This document shows positions 608 through 35,259 of a stretch of DNA of 35,259 bases, one piece after another. Source of the stretch: a virus (lineage: Duplodnaviria > Caudoviricetes). Location of the stretch: positions 1 through 35,259 of the IMG/VR virus record IMGVR_UViG_3300010376_000088; one strand, given 5' to 3'. The position numbers were made by a program, and so were the translations under genes. Each line of letters starts with the position of its first letter. The stretch's first letter is position 1. The notes under the pieces are model-generated. The model made no database searches, was not told where the DNA came from, and worked only from the letters and a program-made list of their open reading frames with translations.

Positions 608-1936
608 TCACTCGTGGCCGGGCGTGTACTCCTGTGTCGGGCCTCCTTCTCCATGGTAAGGAGGGGGTCCGGGGTTCGAGTCCCCGAGAGGGCTTTGGCT
701 CTGTGACTGGCTTTGCGCACCATCGTCCGCCTTCCTGGTCGAGAGCGTTGCGAACACCTTGCGAACACCTTCGCGTTCTACGAGGCTCCTGGCGTCCTTG
801 ATCGTCTGCTCGGCGTCGACCGCTCCGACCCCTCGCAGCTCCTCGACGACGTGCAGGTAGCTGCCCTGCACGGTGTCGATCGTGTCGCCGAGCTGCTCGG
901 CCACGTAGGCGACCGTCTCGCCGTGGTGGAGCAGCAGCGACGCGAAGCAGTGCCGTCCGGCGTACGGCTTCGCGCGGGGCAGGCCGATCGCCTTCTGCGT
1001 CGGGAACCAGACGCGGCCGCGCCAGTTCCGGTAGTCGACCTCCGTCCACGGCTTCCCGTCCGGCCGGGCGAACACGAGGCCTCGCCCGTCGGCTGCGGCG
1101 GCGACGGCGAGGTCGGTCTTCAACGGGGCGAGCAACCTGACGGAGCGGTTGCGCCGGTTCTTGGTCGGGCGCAGCTCACCGAGCGACGCGGCCTGGTCGA
1201 TGACCAGCGTGTTCGCCAGGACGCGCTCCCATTCCAGGCCGAGCGCCTCGCCGGGCCTGAGCCCGGCCAGGTGGATCAGCGAGGCGAGCAGCGCGTCCTG
1301 CTCGGCGGTCGGTGCCGGCACCTTGCGGGCGTAGCCGTTCCCGGCCTGCGTGATCTGCCGGTCGAGCAGTGCGCGGCGCATCAGCTCGAACACGAGCGGG
1401 TGGCTTGCCAGCACGGCCCGCTTGCGCGGCGTCGGCTTCGGCACCTCTTTCAGCGGGTTCGTCTCCACGTAGTCCCAGAGCACGGCCTCGCGGAACATGG
1501 CCTGCACGATCCCGAGCAGCTTCGCGATCGTGGCGTCGCCGAGACCGGCCGCCTCGAGGTCGAGCCGCAGGCGCACCCACACGGCGGGCCTGCTGCTCTT
1601 GCCGAACGTCCACGTACCGACGCGCGGGAGCAGGTGCCGGTCCCACTGGTCGGCGTAGTCGCGCTGCGTCTTCGGGGCGAGGCTGCCCTTGGCGAAGTCG
1701 CGGAACCACTCCTGCGCGAACGCGTCGAGCCGCATCTCGGCGGCGGCGATCGGGCCGACGTGGCCGGTCGCCTTCTTCAGCGTGAAGCTGGCGTCGAACT
1801 CGGCGGCCGCGGCCTCGGCGAGCTCCAGGCTGCCGTAGTCGCGGACCGCGAACGTCTTCTGCCTGTTCGGCCCCTTCTTGCCGCCGGGCCTGTACCGGAC
1901 GATCGGAGTCCCGTCGGGACGATGGTGCACGCTCAT
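608..1936 (-). CDS. int: Tyrosine recombinase (phage integrase)
   Basis: GLRPGEALGL (R), TKNRR (K), YAGRH, LGD...SYLH (Y) motifs; N-terminal arm-binding and core-binding regions; SD AGGAGG. Confidence 0.95.
   Translation of the reverse strand: MSVHHRPDGTPIVRYRPGGKKGPNRQKTFAVRDYGSLELAEAAAAEFDASFTLKKATGHVGPIAAAEMRLDAFAQEWFRDFAKGSLAPKTQRDYADQWDRHLLPRVGTWTFGKSSRPAVWVRLRLDLEAAGLGDATIAKLLGIVQAMFREAVLWDYVETNPLKEVPKPTPRKRAVLASHPLVFELMRRALLDRQITQAGNGYARKVPAPTAEQDALLASLIHLAGLRPGEALGLEWERVLANTLVIDQAASLGELRPTKNRRNRSVRLLAPLKTDLAVAAAADGRGLVFARPDGKPWTEVDYRNWRGRVWFPTQKAIGLPRAKPYAGRHCFASLLLHHGETVAYVAEQLGDTIDTVQGSYLHVVEELRGVGAVDAEQTIKDARSLVEREGVRKVFATLSTRKADDGAQSQSQSQSPLGDSNPGPPPYHGEGGPTQEYTPGHE
648..694 (+). 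other. attP core = 3' half of tRNA-Thr(GGT), not a complete tRNA
   Basis: Anticodon arm TCTCC-ATGGTAA-GGAGG (GGT at 655-657), variable loop GGGTC, T arm CGGGG-TTCGAGT-CCCCG, acceptor 3' strand AGAGGGC+T; no D arm or 5' acceptor strand upstream. Confidence 0.9.
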
Positions 1937-1948
1937 GGTCGTAGCCTC

Positions 1949-2236
1949 CTAGTCGCTTCCCTGGTCACCTAGGAGGATACGCAGTCCACGCGGGTCTTTC
2001 AACGACTCCCGCCGCCCGGCGGCGCCGGCCCCAATCGGTTCGTCGGGCGGCGGAACTTGCGACTCGTCGAGCCAGAGCTTGAAGTCGGCGACACGGACGC
2101 GGACGCGGCCGCGCAGCCGGATCGCGTGCAGCTCGCCGGCGCGCACCGCGCGGTACACGGCGGCGTTCGACAGGCGGGCGAGCATGGCGACCTCGGCGAC
2201 GGTGAGCAGGAACTCAGGGTTCGTCAGGTCGATCAC
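1949..2236 (-). CDS. xis: Excisionase-like MerR/HTH_17 DNA-binding protein
   Basis: LLTVAEVAMLARLSNAAVYRAVRAGELHAIRLRGRVRV; immediately upstream of int; GTG at 2236 after GGGGGTG (ATG 2284 is an alternative). Confidence 0.85.
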   Translation of the reverse strand: MIDLTNPEFLLTVAEVAMLARLSNAAVYRAVRAGELHAIRLRGRVRVRVADFKLWLDESQVPPPDEPIGAGAAGRRESLKDPRGLRILLGDQGSD

Positions 2237-2485: not shown

Positions 2486-2980
2486 GTGTCGGAAACACGC
2501 CATCAGCCACCAGAGTGGCTGACGCGGGCTGAGGCGGCTGCGGTAGCTCGGGTCAGCCAGAAGACGATCGACAGAGCGATCGCCAGCGGAAGCCTGCGCG
2601 CGACCAAGGTCAACGGCCGCCGCGTCCGCATCCACCGCAGCTGGCTCACCGCCTGGCTGCTCGGCGCCGCCCTCCTCATCTGCTCGCTCTACCACTCCGA
2701 GCGCGTCGACCGCTGGTGCCAGACGGTCAAGCAGGGCCGCTACGGCGCGCGGCTCGCGAAGCTGGCCGCGCTCGTCTTCTCGACGCTTCTGCTTCTGTTC
2801 ATGCTCGGCAACGTCGCGAGCTGGGACCCGGCCGAGCACGTCATGCGGAACCTCGGCATCAGCTGGGGCCCGGGCGTCGACACCGACCACGACGGCGTGA
2901 TCGGCAACGACCACGACGGCGACCACGACCCGACCAGCGACGTCGGCCAGGCGACCGACCGCGATCCGCGGCACCCATAG
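2486..2980 (+). CDS. Xis-like HTH domain fused to hydrophobic helices and an Asp/His-rich tail
   Basis: WLTRAEAAAVARVSQKTIDRAIASGSLRATKVNGRRVRI; hydrophobic segments WLTAWLLGAALLICSLY and LAALVFSTLLLLFMLGNV; DTDHDGVIGNDHDGDHD; start GTG 2486 inferred. Confidence 0.75.
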   Translation: MSETRHQPPEWLTRAEAAAVARVSQKTIDRAIASGSLRATKVNGRRVRIHRSWLTAWLLGAALLICSLYHSERVDRWCQTVKQGRYGARLAKLAALVFSTLLLLFMLGNVASWDPAEHVMRNLGISWGPGVDTDHDGVIGNDHDGDHDPTSDVGQATDRDPRHP

Positions 2981-3027
2981 GTGCTCAGGCTGACGCGGCG
3001 GCGCAGCATGAGCAGGTATGCGCTATG
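2976..3027. repeat. 52-bp cassette, copy 1 (CATAggTGCTCA-N21-TGAGCAggTATG-cgctatg)
   Basis: Near-identical to 24629-24680 and 30568-30619. Confidence 0.9.
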
Positions 3028-4395: not shown

Positions 4396-6408
4396 CTAGT
4401 TCGGGTTCTGGTTCGACCCGGCGAGCTGACACCACTTCGCCTTCGTCGCGTCCCACACGAACCACATCGTGATCGTGTTCCCCGCCGACACCGACAGCCC
4501 CGTGACGCCCCAGAAGATCGCGTTCGGCGCGAGCGTGATCGTGCCCGTCCCCTTGTTCGCGATGATCAGCGTGAGCCAGGTGCTCGTGTTCGCCGGCGGC
4601 GTCGTCGTCCCGTTCGGCGAGCTGATCGTGATCGTGCCGCCCGCACCCGAGGTCGCGTCGTAGTGGAACACGTTGCCCTTCGTCCAGTCGATCGTCCAGG
4701 TCGCCGTCGACGCGCCGGCCACGGTGACGAACCCGGTCATCAGGTTCCCGGTCAGCGAGAGCGACCCGGCCGCGACCCGGGTCAGCGTCGTGTCCCTCGT
4801 CGCGGCGCCCGTCCCCCACAGCAGCGAGCCGTCGCCCAGGATCGAGAAGCGCGCGATCGTGTCCGCGCTGTTGGCGACGCTGCTGGTCAGGATCGAGTTG
4901 CCCGCCGCGCCCGGGTAGAGCGCGAGCAGTCCGCTCGCGGCGAGCGTCGCCGCGGACGTCGACCACGGCCCGGGGCCGGGCGACGTGCCGACCGCGAGCG
5001 CCGACGCGAAGATCTGCGTCGACCCGCTCGCCTTGTCGGCGGCGTTCGTTACCTGCGCGGCCGTGTAGTCGCCCGCCGCTGCGGTGATCGCACCTGCGCG
5101 GCCGAACACGGTGCCGATCGGCGTCCACAGACCCGAGCTCTCCCAGGTCAAGAACATGCCCTGCCCGGGCGCGAGCGTGAACGCCGTGCGGATGCGGGTG
5201 CTGCCCGTCCCGGTCGTCCCGGCCGTGATCGTCGTGCTCGAGACGTTGAACAGGTACAGGAGCTGCGACGGGGCCTGCGCGCCGGTGATGTTGAGCAGCG
5301 TCGAGCCGTCGTTCGTCGTGACCCGGATCGCCTCCACGCCGCCGGCGGGCAGAGCGAGCGTCCCCGACGCGATCGTTCCGGCGCCCCCGAGGGCGCCCGC
5401 GAACACCGTGCCGATCAGCGGCCCCGAGAACGTCTGCGCCGCGGACGCCGACAGGTCGGCGGCGTTCGTGACCATCGCGGCCGTGTAGTCGCCTGCGGTG
5501 GCGACGACTGCGCCGCTGCGCGCAGCACCGGCTGCGCCCTGCCAGCTGGTGACGCCGGTCGTGACCGTCGACCAGGTTCCGTCGCCGCGCAGGAAGACGC
5601 TGTTCGAGGCCGGGTAGCCGGCGAGCTTCGAGATCGCGATCGCGGCGCCCGCGGCGATGTCCGTGTTCGTGACCGACCCGGCCAGGTTCAGCTTCGAGTA
5701 GGCGATCGCCGCGCCTGAGGCGATGTCGCTGTTCGTGACCGAGCCCGTGAGCGCGAGCTTCGTGTACGCGATCGCGGCGGTCGCGCTGACGTCCTCGTTC
5801 AGGATCGCGCGTTCGCGGACCGTCTCGCGCCACTGCGTCCCGTCCCAGACGAACGTCATCGACTCGCGCGGCCCGAGCACGACGTTCGTCGCGTTGCGGG
5901 TGAGCAGCTGCGCACCCGTCCCGCCCGCCACCTGATTGAGCACGGTCACGTTGCCGGAGGCCGTCGCGTTCTCGACGACGAGCACCTGGCCGATCCCGGC
6001 CGGTGGGCCGCCGATCGAGCGCAGCGAGCCGCCCGACGTCGTGATCGAGAGGAACGCCGTCGCGCCCGGGTTGGCCGCCGGCCAGGCCAGGTCGGTGTTC
6101 GCGCCCGAGACGGTCTGCCCCGCCGCGAGCGTGGTCACGTTCGTCCAGTTGCCCGAGCCGTTGAGGTACTTCGTCGCGTCGGCCGGGTAGCCGCTGAGGC
6201 TGGTGATCCCGAGCTTGGTCACGGTCGAGCGCGCCCAGGCGCTGCCGTTCCAGACCTGCGTCTCGCCCGGCTGTATCCCGGTCACCGGCGCGGTGCCGGG
6301 CCCGAGCGCGGTCTCGACGTCGTTCGCGAGGTTCGCTATGTCGCGCGGCACGTCGGCCGAGTCGGTCGAGGCCGGGTAGCGCAGTCCGAACTTCGGGGTC
6401 GCTGGCAT
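4396..6408 (-). CDS. Tail fibre / receptor-binding protein
   Basis: N-terminus MPATPKFGLRYPASTDSADVPRDIANLA typical of actinophage fibres; G/A/T/S-rich with internal repeats (AGDYTAAxVTNAAD x2, AIAYxKL x3); follows the baseplate genes. Confidence 0.85.
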   Translation of the reverse strand: MPATPKFGLRYPASTDSADVPRDIANLANDVETALGPGTAPVTGIQPGETQVWNGSAWARSTVTKLGITSLSGYPADATKYLNGSGNWTNVTTLAAGQTVSGANTDLAWPAANPGATAFLSITTSGGSLRSIGGPPAGIGQVLVVENATASGNVTVLNQVAGGTGAQLLTRNATNVVLGPRESMTFVWDGTQWRETVRERAILNEDVSATAAIAYTKLALTGSVTNSDIASGAAIAYSKLNLAGSVTNTDIAAGAAIAISKLAGYPASNSVFLRGDGTWSTVTTGVTSWQGAAGAARSGAVVATAGDYTAAMVTNAADLSASAAQTFSGPLIGTVFAGALGGAGTIASGTLALPAGGVEAIRVTTNDGSTLLNITGAQAPSQLLYLFNVSSTTITAGTTGTGSTRIRTAFTLAPGQGMFLTWESSGLWTPIGTVFGRAGAITAAAGDYTAAQVTNAADKASGSTQIFASALAVGTSPGPGPWSTSAATLAASGLLALYPGAAGNSILTSSVANSADTIARFSILGDGSLLWGTGAATRDTTLTRVAAGSLSLTGNLMTGFVTVAGASTATWTIDWTKGNVFHYDATSGAGGTITISSPNGTTTPPANTSTWLTLIIANKGTGTITLAPNAIFWGVTGLSVSAGNTITMWFVWDATKAKWCQLAGSNQNPN

Positions 6409-6418
6409 CGTCGCCTCC

Positions 6419-7174
6419 CTAGCCCGCCTTCAGGGCGTTGTAGTCGGTGTACGCCGCCTTCACCGCGGCGTACGTCGCGTAGTTCGCATGCAGCGTTCCG
6501 TACGTCTGGCCGCTCACCGTCGCGTACACGAGCACGATCCCGGCGGGCTTCTGCGCGATCAGCGCCGCCTGCGTCGCGGCCGGGTTCGGCGTCTCGCTCG
6601 CGTAGGTGAACACGCTCAGGTAGTACGCGTAGTCGGGCGAGCTCGTGCCGCCTCCCTCCCGCTCGCCGAGCAGGACGGTCTTCGTGCCGGTCAGGGTGGC
6701 CTGGGCGGCGGCGACGATCGCGGCCGGTGTGCCGCGCCGGAACCCGTCCGTCGAGGCGACCCAGGCTCGCGCGTCGGCGTCGTCGAGGCCGTCCGGGATG
6801 CGCACGCCGGCGAACTGCGCCAGCCAGGCCAGCGAGTCGCTCGGGCAGCGGTTCAGGTCCATGATCTGCGACCAGCCCGGCCCGTCCGGCGTGTCCCTGA
6901 CCCAGCCGTCGACCTCCTGGAACATGACGCCGATCGCGTTGCACAGGATCAGCAGCGACCAGCCGGCGTCCGGGTCGAGCTGCGCGAGCGGCTGCAGCAT
7001 CGAGTAGAGCAGCGCCGCGAACGACTCGGGCAGCAGGTCGGTCGGCGGCGCGGCGTCGCGCGCCCGCCGCCCGGGCGTGTCGGCCAGCGCGCGCAGCGGC
7101 GGGTACGGCGGCGTCCCCGAGAGCTGCCGCTTGGACAGGTTCGGGTACTGGGTGGGCGGCTGCGGCGTGCTCAT
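6419..7174 (-). CDS. Baseplate wedge / P2 gpI-like tail protein
   Basis: DLNRCPSDSLAWLAQFAGV, RRGTPAAI and KPAGI motifs; follows baseplate J. Confidence 0.8.
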   Translation of the reverse strand: MSTPQPPTQYPNLSKRQLSGTPPYPPLRALADTPGRRARDAAPPTDLLPESFAALLYSMLQPLAQLDPDAGWSLLILCNAIGVMFQEVDGWVRDTPDGPGWSQIMDLNRCPSDSLAWLAQFAGVRIPDGLDDADARAWVASTDGFRRGTPAAIVAAAQATLTGTKTVLLGEREGGGTSSPDYAYYLSVFTYASETPNPAATQAALIAQKPAGIVLVYATVSGQTYGTLHANYATYAAVKAAYTDYNALKAG

Positions 7175-24628: not shown

Positions 24629-24680
24629 CATAGGTGATCAGGCTGCGGCGGCGTGTCGTGGTGAGCAGGTATGCGCTAGG
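24629..24680. repeat. 52-bp cassette, copy 2
   Basis: CATAGGTGATCA-N21-TGAGCAGGTATGCGCTAGG. Confidence 0.9.
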
Positions 24681-26025: not shown

Positions 26026-26031
26026 CGTGTC

Positions 26032-26098
26032 CTCCTTCGGACTCGGATCACGGTGCACCGGCTGGTGCACCCGCCCCCGCCATCGCGGGCGGGAGCGG
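26032..26098 (-). promoter_or_regulatory. Conserved structured leader A (before parB)
   Basis: CCGC[hairpin]GCGG-GUGCACC-N4-GGUGCAC-CGU-GAUCCGAGUC-CGAAGGAG. Confidence 0.85.
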
Positions 26099-26103
26099 GA
26101 ACA

Positions 26104-27684: not shown

Positions 27685-27689
27685 TTGTC

Positions 27690-27755
27690 CTCCTTCGGAC
27701 GTTTGACTCGGATCGGAGCGGGTGCTCCCGCCCCCGGCCAGGTGGCCGGGAGCGG
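27690..27755 (-). promoter_or_regulatory. Conserved structured leader B
   Basis: CCGC[hairpin]GCGG-GAGC-ACCC-GCUC-C-GAUCCGAGUC-N7-CGAAGGAG. Confidence 0.85.
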
Positions 27756-27761
27756 CACGCA

Positions 27762-30484: not shown

Positions 30485-30490
30485 CACTTC

Positions 30491-30554
30491 CTCCTTCGGT
30501 TGACTCGGATCGGAGCGAACGCTCCCGCCGCCTCGTCCTCACGGGCGAGGGCGG
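30491..30554 (-). promoter_or_regulatory. Conserved structured leader C (before ku)
   Basis: CCGC[hairpin, GUGA loop]GCGG-GAGC-GUUC-GCUC-C-GAUCCGAGUC-AAC-CGAAGGAG. Confidence 0.85.
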
Positions 30555-30567
30555 CAACGCTCTCTCT

Positions 30568-30619
30568 CATAGGTGCTCAGGCTGGCGCGGCGGCGCATCA
30601 TGAGCAGGTATGCGCTATG
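30568..30619. repeat. 52-bp cassette, copy 3
   Basis: CATAGGTGCTCA-N21-TGAGCAGGTATGCGCTATG. Confidence 0.9.
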
Positions 30620-32425: not shown

Positions 32426-32432
32426 TCTGGGC

Positions 32433-32521
32433 CTCCTTCGTGAACGGCCTCGCGGCCGCGTTGCGTTGACTCGGATCACGGAGCGGATGCTCCCGCACTG
32501 ATTCCGGCGGAATCAGCGCGG
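32433..32521 (-). promoter_or_regulatory. Conserved structured leader D (before the helicase); its first hairpin is palindrome copy 4 (32500-32514)
   Basis: CCGC-G-CUGAUUCC-GCC-GGAAUCAG-U-GCGG-GAGC-AUCC-GCUC-CGU-GAUCCGAGUCAA...GUUCACGAAGGAG. Confidence 0.85.
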
Positions 32522-32527
32522 CAACGT

Positions 32528-32842: not shown

Positions 32843-32848
32843 CTCGTT

Positions 32849-32915
32849 CTCCTTCGTTCGACTCGGATCGTTCGGAGCAGGCGCTCCCGCCAGCCGCCCT
32901 CGCGGGCGGCGGCGG
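32849..32915 (-). promoter_or_regulatory. Conserved structured leader E
   Basis: CCGC[hairpin, GCGA loop]GCGG-GAGC-GCCU-GCUC-CGAAC-GAUCCGAGUC-GAA-CGAAGGAG. Confidence 0.85.
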
Positions 32916-32917
32916 CA

Positions 32918-33154: not shown

Positions 33155-33435
33155 CAGACGAGCTCCTCGAGCTGCTCGCGCAGCTCGATCAGCGCGTCGA
33201 CGGCCGCGCGCTGCTCCTCGATCACGGAGCCGAGGTCGCGATCGCCGATCGGCAGCGTCTTCGCGAACTCGATCAGCGCGCTCAGCTCGCGCGCCTTCGT
33301 GCGGATCGTGTTGTTCGTCCGCGTCGCGACCACGTCGGTCGTCGACTCGAACGACAAGCCCTGGTCGGCGACGCCGCGGACGGCGACGCCCGCGCGGCTG
33401 GCCGCGTCGAGCATGTTCAGCGTGTTCGTGTGCAT
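33154..33435 (-). CDS. Hypothetical protein, first gene of the early arm
   Basis: 93 aa, SD GAAGGAG. Confidence 0.75.
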   Translation of the reverse strand: MHTNTLNMLDAASRAGVAVRGVADQGLSFESTTDVVATRTNNTIRTKARELSALIEFAKTLPIGDRDLGSVIEEQRAAVDALIELREQLEELV

Positions 33436-33449
33436 CTCTTTCTCCTTCG

Positions 33450-34086
33450 TTCGTTGTCTTCACGTACAACGGGCGGCCATTCGGCCGCCCGTGAATCGCC
33501 GCTACGGAATCGAACCGTCCACGGCGACAGGCGCGATCTACCACTCGCGCCTTGCTCTGATCGAATCTGCTCGCTGTCCCTCTCGCGTCCGTGCGTGCGA
33601 CGCGGTGTGTCCTGGCGAGCCACCCATGCGGATCGAGGGCGACCACGCCCTCGTACTCGGCGAGCGTCCGGCGCGACTCGATCGCGAACGCCTACTCCCT
33701 CTCGTCGTGTCCTACCGACGAGCCTTTCGACTCGCGGCGACGGCTCGTTCGTTACCGGCCGTCGTCGCTCACGCGATCGTCGTCGTGCCTTTCACTCGCT
33801 TTCACCCGCTCGATCTGGGTGCCGGGGACCGCTGACTGGCGCTGACGCCTAACCCGGTTCTCGTGCCCGTTGCCGATCGCGAAGTTCCTCCTCGCTTCCT
33901 TCCTCGCTGCCTGAGCTTGCGCTCTCCCACTTCCGGTCGTCTTACGAGCACCGGTCGGGCGGGCAGGCGTTTCACCGGGGGCTTTCGCAATCCCGGATCG
34001 GAAGCTGTGTTCTGGCTCCGCTGGGCCGCTCGGAGAAGACAGGGCGCGCTCGCTGGTGACTGTCGCGGTGTCTTTCTCTCTGGTCT
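33450..34086 (-). ncRNA. Putative large structured RNA / 5' leader of the early transcript
   Basis: No credible ORF; dense hairpins, GAAA and GCAA tetraloops, nested multibranch pairing, D-loop-like and T-loop-like hairpins. Confidence 0.65.
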
Positions 34087-34092
34087 ACTTTA

Positions 34093-34121
34093 AGCATAGC
34101 ACATAGGCGCTCACGGGCGAA
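34093..34121 (-). promoter_or_regulatory. Leftward early promoter
   Basis: TTCGCC-N17-TATGCT with extended TGn; a TGAGCnnnTATG half-site lies in the spacer. Confidence 0.55.
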
Positions 34122-34183
34122 GCGAAAACCCCTGCAAACGGGCACATTTGAGCCACTATGCTGTCGCCCGCGAGGGCAACGGC

Positions 34184-34212
34184 TTGGCCCGTCCGGCGCA
34201 CCCGGCTACACT
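34184..34212 (+). promoter_or_regulatory. Rightward SigA-like promoter
   Basis: TTGGCC-N17-TACACT; predicted start ~34218. Confidence 0.65.
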
Positions 34213-34217
34213 CCACC

Positions 34218-34346
34218 ATGCCGTCCGAGTCGGGTCGCTTTCTCTCTGGTCAGAGCTGGTTGCCTCCTCGGACGGCGCTGCTCGGGGCTCCGCCATCTCC
34301 TTCGTGAACCTTGACTCGGATCGCGTAGCGGCGGAGCCCGGGCAGC
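34218..34346 (+). ncRNA. Putative trans-acting antisense RNA with two stem-loops
   Basis: Stem 1 34220-34229/34267-34276 (10 bp); stem 2 34277-34294/34330-34346 (17 bp, one bulge, one U-G); loops complementary to early-transcript elements. Confidence 0.65.
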
Positions 34347-35173
34347 TCGAGCATCTGGCGATCGACCTGCCCGCCGGCACCGTGACCGTGCGCGAGGTCG
34401 GCGACGTCTGGCAGTCGGAGCAGACGTTCGACCTCGACGACCCGCGGGCCTTCGAGGCGATCTCGATCGCCTGGCTGCGCTGCGCCTGGGACGTCAAGCA
34501 CCAGTGGTCGTACAGCTGGTTCGGCCGCCCGATCATCCAGCTGCCCGAGGACATGTTCCGCGTCCAGGAGCTCGTCTGGCGGCTGCGCCCGGACGTCATC
34601 CTCGAGACGGGCGTCGCCCACGGCGGCTCGCTCGTCTTCTACGCCTCGCTCTGCAAGGCGCTCGGCCACGGCCGCGTCATCGGCGTCGAGCTGCCGCGCA
34701 GCCCGGACCTCGACCACCGCGACGCGATCATGCAGCACCCGCTCGCCGACTACATCACGCTCATCCACGGCGACTCGATCGCGGCCGACGTCGTCGACCG
34801 CGTCTACGACGACATCGGCGTCCCGCGCATAGGTGCTCAACCGCACGCGCCGCCGACCGTGCTGCTGCTGCTCGACTCCGACCACAGCCGCTCGCACGTC
34901 ATCTCCGAACTCGTCGCCTACGGCCCGCTCGTCACGCCGGGCTCGTACGCGATCGTGCAGGACGGCTTCATCCAGTCACTCGTCGCCCGCACGCACGGCC
35001 CACGCGCGAACCCGGACTGGGCGACGAACAATGCGCTCGTCGGCGCCCGCGCCTTCGTCGCCGCCAACGCCGACGACTGGGCGATCGGCCCGCCCGACCC
35101 GCCCTTCGACGAGGGCGTCGCGCCCCACTCGGCGACCCACTTCACCGGCGGCTGGCTGCGCCGCCTCCGCTGA
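34304..35173 (+). CDS. CmcI-family (cephalosporin hydroxylase / rhamnosyl O-methyltransferase-like) SAM-dependent methyltransferase; start uncertain
   Basis: YSWFGRPIIQLPEDM...QELVWRLRPDVILETGVAHGGSL...GDS...LDSDHSRSHV...ELVAYGPLVTPGSYAIVQD. Confidence 0.88.
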   Translation: MNLDSDRVAAEPGQLEHLAIDLPAGTVTVREVGDVWQSEQTFDLDDPRAFEAISIAWLRCAWDVKHQWSYSWFGRPIIQLPEDMFRVQELVWRLRPDVILETGVAHGGSLVFYASLCKALGHGRVIGVELPRSPDLDHRDAIMQHPLADYITLIHGDSIAADVVDRVYDDIGVPRIGAQPHAPPTVLLLLDSDHSRSHVISELVAYGPLVTPGSYAIVQDGFIQSLVARTHGPRANPDWATNNALVGARAFVAANADDWAIGPPDPPFDEGVAPHSATHFTGGWLRRLR

Positions 35174-35259
35174 CAGCGCACACGCCCGAGCGCTCGCCGG
35201 ACACACCGCTCGCCCGCGGTTTTTCCAGTTTTTTTCGCGGGGCGCGGGGTTGTGGGTCA

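What the first reader, a model, noticed from the sequence alone, without database searches (positions are those of the whole stretch)
34218..34346. Candidate multi-target antisense RNA: repressor-free, RNA-based control of the early arm
Seen: behind a TTGGCC-N17-TACACT promoter, a + strand RNA can fold into two strong GC stems with ~35-nt loops. Loop 2 (34295-34329) carries CUCCUUCGUGAAC and UUGACUCGGAUC. These are the complements of the SD (CGAAGGAG) and the GAUCCGAGUC box in five minus-strand leaders (before parB, the 27684 membrane gene, ku, the helicase and the 32842 gene). The helicase leader matches both boxes fully (13 + 12 nt). A U-G pair in stem 2 works only on the + strand, while G-U pairs in the leaders work only on the - strand. 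Read on the minus strand this sixth copy lacks the leader hairpins and has no SD-ATG spacing, so it is not a sixth leader. Most other early genes are coupled to these five by overlapping stop/start codons, and no CI-like repressor is in the window. Known precedent: P1/P7 C4 RNA and P4 CI RNA act on one locus. Inference: one RNA blocks the head ribosome-binding site of each early gene block and provides lysogenic immunity.
Basis: partly seen in the sequence, partly recalled or inferred. Interest (0 to 1): 0.95.

Follow-up and report, generated by a model that had tools for sequence, protein, structure and literature searches.

The report
Two-loop phage antisense repressor RNA
An uncultured, integrase-carrying phage has a 130-base stretch predicted to fold into two hairpins whose loops mirror the predicted start of its early message and the ribosome-binding sites of five early genes; the matches change in step in three related phages, so it likely works as an RNA that keeps the early genes silent.

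Summary
Observation confirmed and extended. Window 34219-34346 (+) follows a promoter-like site and is predicted to fold into two GC stems. Loop 2 is complementary to the SD and GATCCGAGTC box of five early leaders, which rank 1-5 of 48 gene starts. All three relatives found with this helicase carry the element. Stems show compensatory changes, loop 1 has three unrelated sequences that each match their own early 5' end, and in the distant relative box and loop 2 changed together while the element flipped strand. RNA-RNA pairing is about 85% likely. 'Repressor-free immunity' is unproven: the contig is 80% complete, an operator-like motif sits in the early promoter, one relative encodes an HTH_3 protein, another has no detectable integrase, and the first early gene lacks the box. 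No RNA data. No Rfam match; it would work like P1 c4 or P4 CI RNA but is not a member. The scan noted similar anti-leader RNAs on other phage DNA (38 unchecked notes).

The parts
34184..34212 (+). Predicted host-type promoter of the RNA (TTGGCC-N17-TACACT)
   Evidence: same position in L016 (TTGACC-N16-TACACT), G001 (TAGACG-N18-TATGCT) and G002 (extended -10 TGTTATCGT)
34219..34346 (+). Predicted two-hairpin antisense RNA; ends inferred, no U-tract after stem 2, so read-through into the CmcI-like gene is possible
   Evidence: copies at L012:1483-1634(-), L016:3301-3432(-), L015:about 4727-4857(+)
34220..34276 (+). Stem 1 (34220-34229 with 34267-34276) closing the 37-nt loop 1, which begins UCG and ends GCCUC in 4 of 4 copies
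34238..34251 (+). Loop 1 guide, exact complement of 34072-34085 on the early transcript
   Evidence: best exact match in the window 14 nt, next best 9 nt
34277..34346 (+). Stem 2 (34277-34294 with 34330-34346) closing loop 2 (34295-34329)
34297..34322 (+). Loop 2 guides: anti-SD segment 34297-34309 and anti-box segment 34311-34322
34093..34121 (-). Predicted early promoter (TTCGCC-N17-TATGCT with TG extension)
   Evidence: G001 has TTGACG-N17-TATGCT and L016 TTGACG..TATGCT at the same place
34072..34085 (-). Target of loop 1: begins 8 nt after the early -10 hexamer, about +1/+2 of the predicted transcript
34102..34113 (-). Operator-like TGAGCNNNTATG site in the early-promoter spacer
34149..34160 (+). 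Second operator-like site, 23 nt upstream of the RNA promoter
   Evidence: paired site also in L016, degenerate in G001
33436..34086 (-). 651-nt structured early leader with no SD-led ORF
   Evidence: z -3.7, 25 shuffles
32843..32917 (-). Boxed leader of the 32842 gene (box 32860-32869)
32426..32527 (-). Boxed leader of the AAA_25 helicase (box 32466-32477, SD side 32433-32445, hairpin between them); strongest target
30485..30560 (-). Boxed leader of ku, coupled to an ATP-dependent ligase (box 30502-30511)
27685..27761 (-). Boxed leader of the 27684 gene with a hydrophobic N-terminus (box 27705-27714)
26026..26103 (-). Boxed leader of parB (box 26040-26049)
34304..35173 (+). CmcI-like methyltransferase ORF whose GTG lies inside loop 2, with no SD upstream
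   Evidence: Pfam PF04989 E 5e-49; frame open from the same GTG in 3 of 3 phages that have the gene

Best explanation
The element is a conserved 130-base sequence, predicted to be transcribed from its own promoter and to fold into two hairpins, that likely acts as a trans-acting antisense RNA holding the phage's early arm off, probably in the dormant state. Shown from sequence: loop 2 is complementary to the SD plus a private box in five early leaders; loop 1 is complementary to the 14 bases after the early -10 site; both matches change with their targets across four phages. Inferred: loop 2 blocks ribosome loading at the head of the helicase, Ku-ligase, ParB and two other gene blocks, and coupled downstream genes fall silent with them. 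Loop 1 catches the free 5' end of the nascent early transcript and either disturbs folding of its 650-nt leader, so that transcription stops early, or tethers the RNA to the message that loop 2 then silences. The variable loop 1 guide would set immunity specificity. A protein acting at TGAGCNNNTATG, possibly the phage ParB, probably adds a DNA-level layer, so control is RNA-led rather than shown to be protein-free. Odds: pairing as RNA about 0.85; dormancy as its main setting about 0.45 overall.
For: Element found in 3 of 3 relatives with this helicase at 65% identity or more. Stem changes keep pairing: 4 two-sided changes in stem 2 of L016, 1 each in stems 1 and 2 of G001, and all 10 inner stem-1 pairs differ yet pair in G002. 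Loop 1: window 14 exact nt (next best 9), G001 15 of 16 (next 12), G002 14 of 15 (next 13), L016 13 exact nt; each target begins 5-10 nt after the -10 hexamer. In G002 the early promoter was picked first, and its 5' end and the helicase box both pointed to one locus, which then folded as two hairpins. There the box is GCTGAGTCCA in 3 leaders and its complement is in loop 2 on the opposite DNA strand, so RNA complementarity is kept while DNA orientation is not. G001 has a 2-nt insertion in loop 2 mirrored in 2 leaders. Boxed leaders rank 1-5 of 48 starts (window), 1, 2, 4, 5, 6 of 66 (G001) and 1-3 of 29 (G002, only the L015 stretch tested). Box-to-SD spacing runs from 0 to 29 nt, which suits RNA pairing with a looped-out hairpin. 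Window and G001 carry tyrosine integrases.
Against: No transcript evidence. Only 4 copies, 3 of them close kin. L016 folds better on the opposite strand (-80.4 against -71.1). Guides were defined by their match, so the diagonal energy matrix is partly circular; by energy the G001 and G002 targets lead by only 0.1 and 0.4 kcal/mol among 6704 and 6886 windows, the whole-loop scan did not put the 5' end in its top 14, and with no mismatch allowed the G001 target is not among the 8 best. After opening costs a single helix gives only -6.9 to -10.5 kcal/mol for the five leaders, and control leaders reached -9.3 (integrase), -6.1 and -6.0. The first early gene lacks the box in the window; mgsA and one more block head lack it in G001 and most upstream genes lack it in G002. 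G001 has a seventh box copy at 34342, inside the integrase gene and not beside an SD. G002 has no integrase match. No U-tract terminator lies in the early leader, and blocking its first 17 nt produced no terminator-like refold in 160 nt.
Confidence: 0.45

Rival explanations
1. Same RNA-RNA pairing, but it is a lytic timer: the RNA builds up during infection and shuts early replication and repair genes off, while a protein handles dormancy.
For: G002 (100% complete by CheckV) has the RNA and no integrase match; G001 encodes an HTH_3 protein; operator-like sites in the early promoter; in G001 the RNA heads an operon of a methyltransferase, a ParB-N-like gene and a likely glycosyltransferase that could be lytic functions (function inferred).
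Against: Host-type promoter in 4 of 4 copies would fire in a lysogen unless repressed (inference); divergent, CI-like position in 3 of 4; loop 1 targets transcript position +1, which suits stopping the programme before it starts.
Confidence: 0.25
2. Loop 1 is an input, not an output: the abundant early leader binds loop 1 and titrates or destabilises the RNA, freeing the ribosome-binding sites, so the two RNAs form a toggle.
For: The leader is long (472-651 nt), structured (z -1.6 to -3.7) and almost ORF-free in 4 of 4 phages; no terminator is evident in it; a second loop-1 segment ending GCCUC can pair with a leader site in 3 of 4 phages (3, 7 and 13 of 300 shuffles as good, segments chosen after the fact).
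Against: That second pairing fails in the window itself (219 of 300 shuffles). Direction cannot be read from sequence.
Confidence: 0.15
3. The box and the loop 1 repeat are double-stranded DNA sites for a protein, as with stoperators, and the hairpins are incidental.
For: Asymmetric repeats on one DNA strand in window, G001 and L016; one G001 copy inside a gene.
Against: In G002 the odd copy is on the other strand; it lies in a loop closed by compensated stems in 4 of 4; box-SD spacing varies 0-29 nt; two unrelated repeats would both have to fall in the loops.
Confidence: 0.07
4. It is only a cis-acting 5' leader of the CmcI-like gene, or a decayed sixth leader copy.
For: The GTG in loop 2 opens the CmcI frame in 3 of 3 phages that have the gene, with a frame-keeping insertion in G001.
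Against: G002 has the element with no cmcI gene and flipped against its neighbours; the - strand ATG abuts the SD and its frame is not conserved.
Confidence: 0.05

Closest known systems
c4 antisense RNA of phages P1 and P7 (PMC12197685, passages)
   Same: Phage RNA with complementary segments in loops that pair around a ribosome-binding site; sequence differences underlie P1/P7 heteroimmunity.
   Different: c4 acts on antirepressor (ant) mRNA under a protein repressor. Here the predicted targets are 3-5 separate replication and repair leaders up to 8 kb away plus the transcript 5' end. No Rfam match.
CI RNA of satellite phage P4 (PMC10111431, passages)
   Same: An RNA serves as immunity repressor of early expression by pairing with the early transcript.
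   Different: CI is processed from the transcript it controls and causes termination at nearby seqA. This RNA has its own promoter, lies outside the early transcript, has a second loop for ribosome-binding sites, and no termination is shown.
Start-Associated Sequences (SAS/ESAS) of cluster K mycobacteriophages (PMC3203893, passages and section 15 part 1 of 2)
   Same: A private SD-containing box before non-structural genes, in one orientation, function unknown; the four K1 phages have a single opposite copy away from gene starts. In Anaya that copy is predicted to be the apical loop of a hairpin.
   Different: Unrelated sequence; 11-19 copies; these phages have a protein repressor. The hairpin-borne anti-SAS was seen in 1 of 7 genome right ends examined.
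Multi-target anti-SD sRNAs such as Staphylococcus RNAIII (recalled, no call)
   Same: Several C/U-rich loops pair with SD regions of several mRNAs.
   Different: Host regulators with unrelated targets; here the phage has built one shared box into its own leaders and it co-evolves with the loop.

Membership tests
C4 / P4 CI antisense RNAs | Match to the Rfam C4 or isrK models (named as detecting CI relatives) | tested here: not met
   7 weak hits at E up to 5 in the window, none in this region; 0 hits at E up to 1 in L015 and L016
C4 / P4 CI antisense RNAs | Two short complementary segments exposed in loops | tested here: met
   Loop 2 has two segments, loop 1 at least one; opening costs 1.2-7.5 kcal/mol
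C4 / P4 CI antisense RNAs | Targets lie in the same locus (icd-ant or seqA) and the RNA is cut from that transcript | tested here: not met
   Targets lie 0.15-8.3 kb away on a different transcript; no antirepressor family among called genes
C4 / P4 CI antisense RNAs | Expressed in lysogens and confers immunity | not testable with these tools
   No RNA holder listed
SAS/ESAS of cluster K | 13-bp consensus GGGATAGGAGCCC before start codons | tested here: not met
   Leader boxes read GATCCGAGTC..GAAGGAG or GCTGAGTCCA
SAS/ESAS of cluster K | Private SD-linked repeat before non-structural genes, one orientation, one odd copy | tested here: met
   5 leader copies plus 1 loop copy, none in the structural arm of the window
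Stoperators (L5 type) | Asymmetric repressor-bound DNA sites in one orientation to transcription (detail recalled) | tested here: inconclusive
   Orientation rule broken by the G002 loop copy; protein binding not testable
RNA-guided protein systems (bridge RNA, TnpB-type repressors; recalled) | A cognate recombinase or Cas12/TnpB-like protein encoded nearby | tested here: not met
   No such Pfam or PHROG family among the non-structural genes scanned in window, G001 and G002; the window is 80% complete

The most novel reading that the evidence does not exclude
A family of phages in which one small RNA has replaced CI as master repressor: loop 1 reads the first bases of the early transcript and sets immunity groups, loop 2 reads a box the phage has written into its own ribosome-binding sites. 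The same logic may explain the unexplained SAS boxes of K1 mycobacteriophages.
Probability: 0.33. Interest if true: 0.9.

Novelty: new variant of a known kind. Interest (0 to 1): 0.74.

Why it matters
Known phage immunity RNAs act on one locus. A two-loop RNA predicted to hit both the 5' end of a polycistronic early message and several distant ribosome-binding sites would be a compact, re-programmable repressor that needs no known phage protein, with natural guide-target swaps ready for testing. It also suggests a direct test for SAS boxes, whose role papers from 2011, 2024 and 2025 still call unknown: express the opposite-strand copy and assay SAS-led reporters in M. smegmatis.

Tried and rejected
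No RNA holder listed for 33400-35200; this is no evidence either way. Ku and helicase-motif scans returned only G001 and G002. Of 35 records picked from 80 terminase relatives, 1 had a distant helicase; 17 were fetched (G014 and G020 in part) and 0 of 17 had either box beside an SD or more than one TGAKCNNNTATG site. A generic anti-SD loop detector recovered the 4 positives but gave many unranked hits elsewhere, and its output was cut, so I drew nothing from it. A covariance model from the 3 close copies found only those 3 in 82 sources and missed the G002 copy; MAFFT misaligned that copy. A loop 1 match upstream of the window's integrase SD ranked 3 of 48 and was not reproduced in G001: unconfirmed. 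Host not identified: the attP-like piece hit 3 unannotated records, cluster look-ups gave no organism, and best cultured helicase matches are 25-30%. Relaxed ARAGORN calls in the leader were inconsistent. Literature searches listed no paper on this element; subscription papers are largely outside the library.

Full report
Setting. The window is a whole 35,259-nt virus record, 71% G+C, linear and 80% complete by CheckV, with no terminal repeat. It encodes a tyrosine integrase, two HTH_17 proteins, terminase, portal and capsid genes, and a leftward early arm with an AAA_25 helicase, Ku, ATP-dependent ligase, MgsA_C and ParB. The host is unknown; an actinobacterium is my inference from G+C, Ku plus ligase and transglycosylase-like genes in relatives.

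Observation. The promoter-like site, two stems, loop contents and five boxed leaders are as described. Six exact box copies stand against about 0.13 expected per strand. All 5 spaced junctions of the early arm carry the box and the other 9 of 14 are coupled. The first early gene has no box. Against loop 2, the boxed leaders rank 1, 2, 3, 6 and 10 in a scan of 4694 overlapping windows and 1-5 of 48 gene-start regions.

What was missed. Loop 1 holds CTTTCTCTCTGGTC, which recurs at 34072-34085 and is therefore complementary to the leftward transcript 8 nt after a TG-extended TATGCT. It is the best exact match in the genome, 14 nt against 9. A second motif, TGAGCNNNTATG, occurs 9 times with up to one mismatch (0 of 100 shuffles reach 9), mostly as outward-facing pairs; one site lies in the early-promoter spacer. 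Loop 2 also contains a GTG that opens a CmcI-like ORF.

Relatives. Three were found: G001 (43.7 kb, complete, 71-82% DNA identity over the long matches), L016 (4.7-kb metagenome contig) and G002 (44.9 kb, helicase 65%). All three carry the element. L016 and G001 keep position and promoter spacing with different promoter sequences and show two-sided stem changes; G001 adds a cUUCGg hairpin on the proposed strand. In G001 loop 1 reads CCTGTCGCTTTGGCCA and its early 5' end TGGCCAAAGCAACAGG (15 of 16); a 2-nt insertion in loop 2 recurs in two leaders. G002 served as a prediction test: the 5' end of its presumed early promoter and its helicase leader both matched one locus about 1 kb upstream. That locus folds into two hairpins, better on the strand complementary to the targets (-74.5 against -60.1), has its own extended -10, a third loop 1 sequence and the complement of a different box found in its helicase, ku and parB leaders. 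The element is flipped there, so direct DNA repeats in three phages become inverted repeats in the fourth while RNA complementarity holds. Duplex energies follow: G002 loop 2 gives -30.0 to -38.5 on its own 3 leaders and -17.5 to -28.2 on the 12 others; the other three loops give -18.5 to -26.8 on G002 leaders. Helicase is boxed in 4 of 4, ku and parB in 3 of 3 phages where they are visible.

Limits. Four copies, three close. Guides were defined by their matches. L016 folds better on the other strand. Energy margins for loop 1 are thin in G001 and G002. Accessibility-corrected single helices overlap with some controls. One G001 box copy lies inside the integrase gene. No expression data.

Mechanism. 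Shown: complementarity, conservation, covariation. Inferred: transcription, folding, pairing, repression. Loop 2 would cover the SD directly. The box, 0-29 nt upstream and just after a GGAG..CTCC hairpin in 4 of 5 window leaders, 3 of 5 in G001, 1 of 2 in L016 and 3 of 3 in G002, would give specificity over host SDs. Loop 1 would pair with a free 5' end, which avoids the topological limit on loop pairing (own knowledge); in the window and L016 part of that target also pairs in cis in the first leader hairpin. The outcome is open: attenuation, tethering or titration. No U-tract terminator was found in the leader, so any termination would be Rho-dependent or come from loss of an antiterminator fold; this is inference. 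Two leader blocks invariant in 3 phages pair at long range in the consensus fold, without covariation.

Immunity claim. For: CI-like divergent position in 3 of 4, host-type promoter, integrases in window and G001, variable loop 1, and no HTH_3 outside ParB in complete G002. Against: missing sequence in the window, an HTH_3 gene in G001 far from the early promoter, the operator-like motif, and no integrase in G002. ParB is the only DNA-binding family I found in all three long records, so it is my candidate for the motif; repression by a ParB-family protein has precedent in KorB (recalled).

Known systems. It would work like c4 and P4 CI RNA but fails their membership tests. Cluster K SAS boxes are the closest unexplained parallel; in Anaya 16 copies face forward and 1 backward, and the backward copy is predicted to form a hairpin loop, but 6 other genomes showed none in their last 5-8 kb. 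Papers seen: PMC12197685, PMC11373665, PMC12699233, PMC10111431 and PMC5415839 as passages only; PMC3203893 as passages and part 1 of section 15; no supplements. Eight searches listed no description of this element. The scan's index holds 38 unchecked notes with the same key words on other genomes, 8 shown, and none by sequence or place; I did not test them.

Verdict. A real, conserved element; very probably a multi-target antisense RNA; its role in dormancy is plausible but unproven. New variant of a known kind, interest 0.74.

Noticed in passing
window 2976-3020, 24629-24673, 30568-30612, 34102-34160, 34828-34839: TGAKCNNNTATG sites, mostly outward-facing pairs 21 nt apart; 9 each in window, G001 and G002, at most 1 in 17 terminase-only relatives. 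Candidate ParB (parS-like) or repressor sites.
   Followed up: partly
window 33436-34086 (-); L012:1796-2406; L016:3593-4064; L015:about 5830-6475: Long structured, nearly ORF-free early leader with invariant blocks that can pair at long range and a T-loop-like hairpin near its 3' end in 3 of 4 phages; no Rfam hit. Possible large non-coding RNA or antiterminator.
   Followed up: partly
window 649-688 within 608-1936 (-): A tRNA-like 3' half (attP-like, anticodon GGT by eye) lies inside the 3' end of the integrase ORF, flanked by a 21-nt repeat at 505-525 and 750-770; integration would change the integrase C-terminus.
   Followed up: partly
window 34304-35173 (+): The CmcI-like gene has its only full-length start inside loop 2 with no SD, conserved in 3 of 3 phages. 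How it is translated is unexplained.
   Followed up: partly
five boxed leaders; also L012:5427-5495: Each leader is a repeated cassette of a long hairpin plus a short GGAG..CTCC hairpin; some copies in G001 and G002 lack the box. Possible processing or stabilising sites.
   Followed up: partly
L230 (Anaya, JF704106:59870-59882): The single opposite-orientation SAS is predicted to be the apical loop of a long hairpin in an intergenic region near the right end; seen in 1 of 7 cluster K right ends.
   Followed up: partly
window 1945-1961 (-): Sequence just upstream of the integrase SD can pair with loop 1; ranks 3 of 48 and is not seen in G001.
   Followed up: yes
window 2486-2980 (+); L072:2872-3288: HTH_17 domain fused to hydrophobic segments, next to a second HTH_17 gene and the integrase in both phages, although the two integrases show no tblastn match.
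   Followed up: no
L072:8994-12784; L015:706-4653: Relatives carry sugar-modification genes (epimerase, DegT aminotransferase, methyltransferase, TAGT-like glycosyltransferase, sulfotransferase-like) beside the RNA locus.
   Followed up: no
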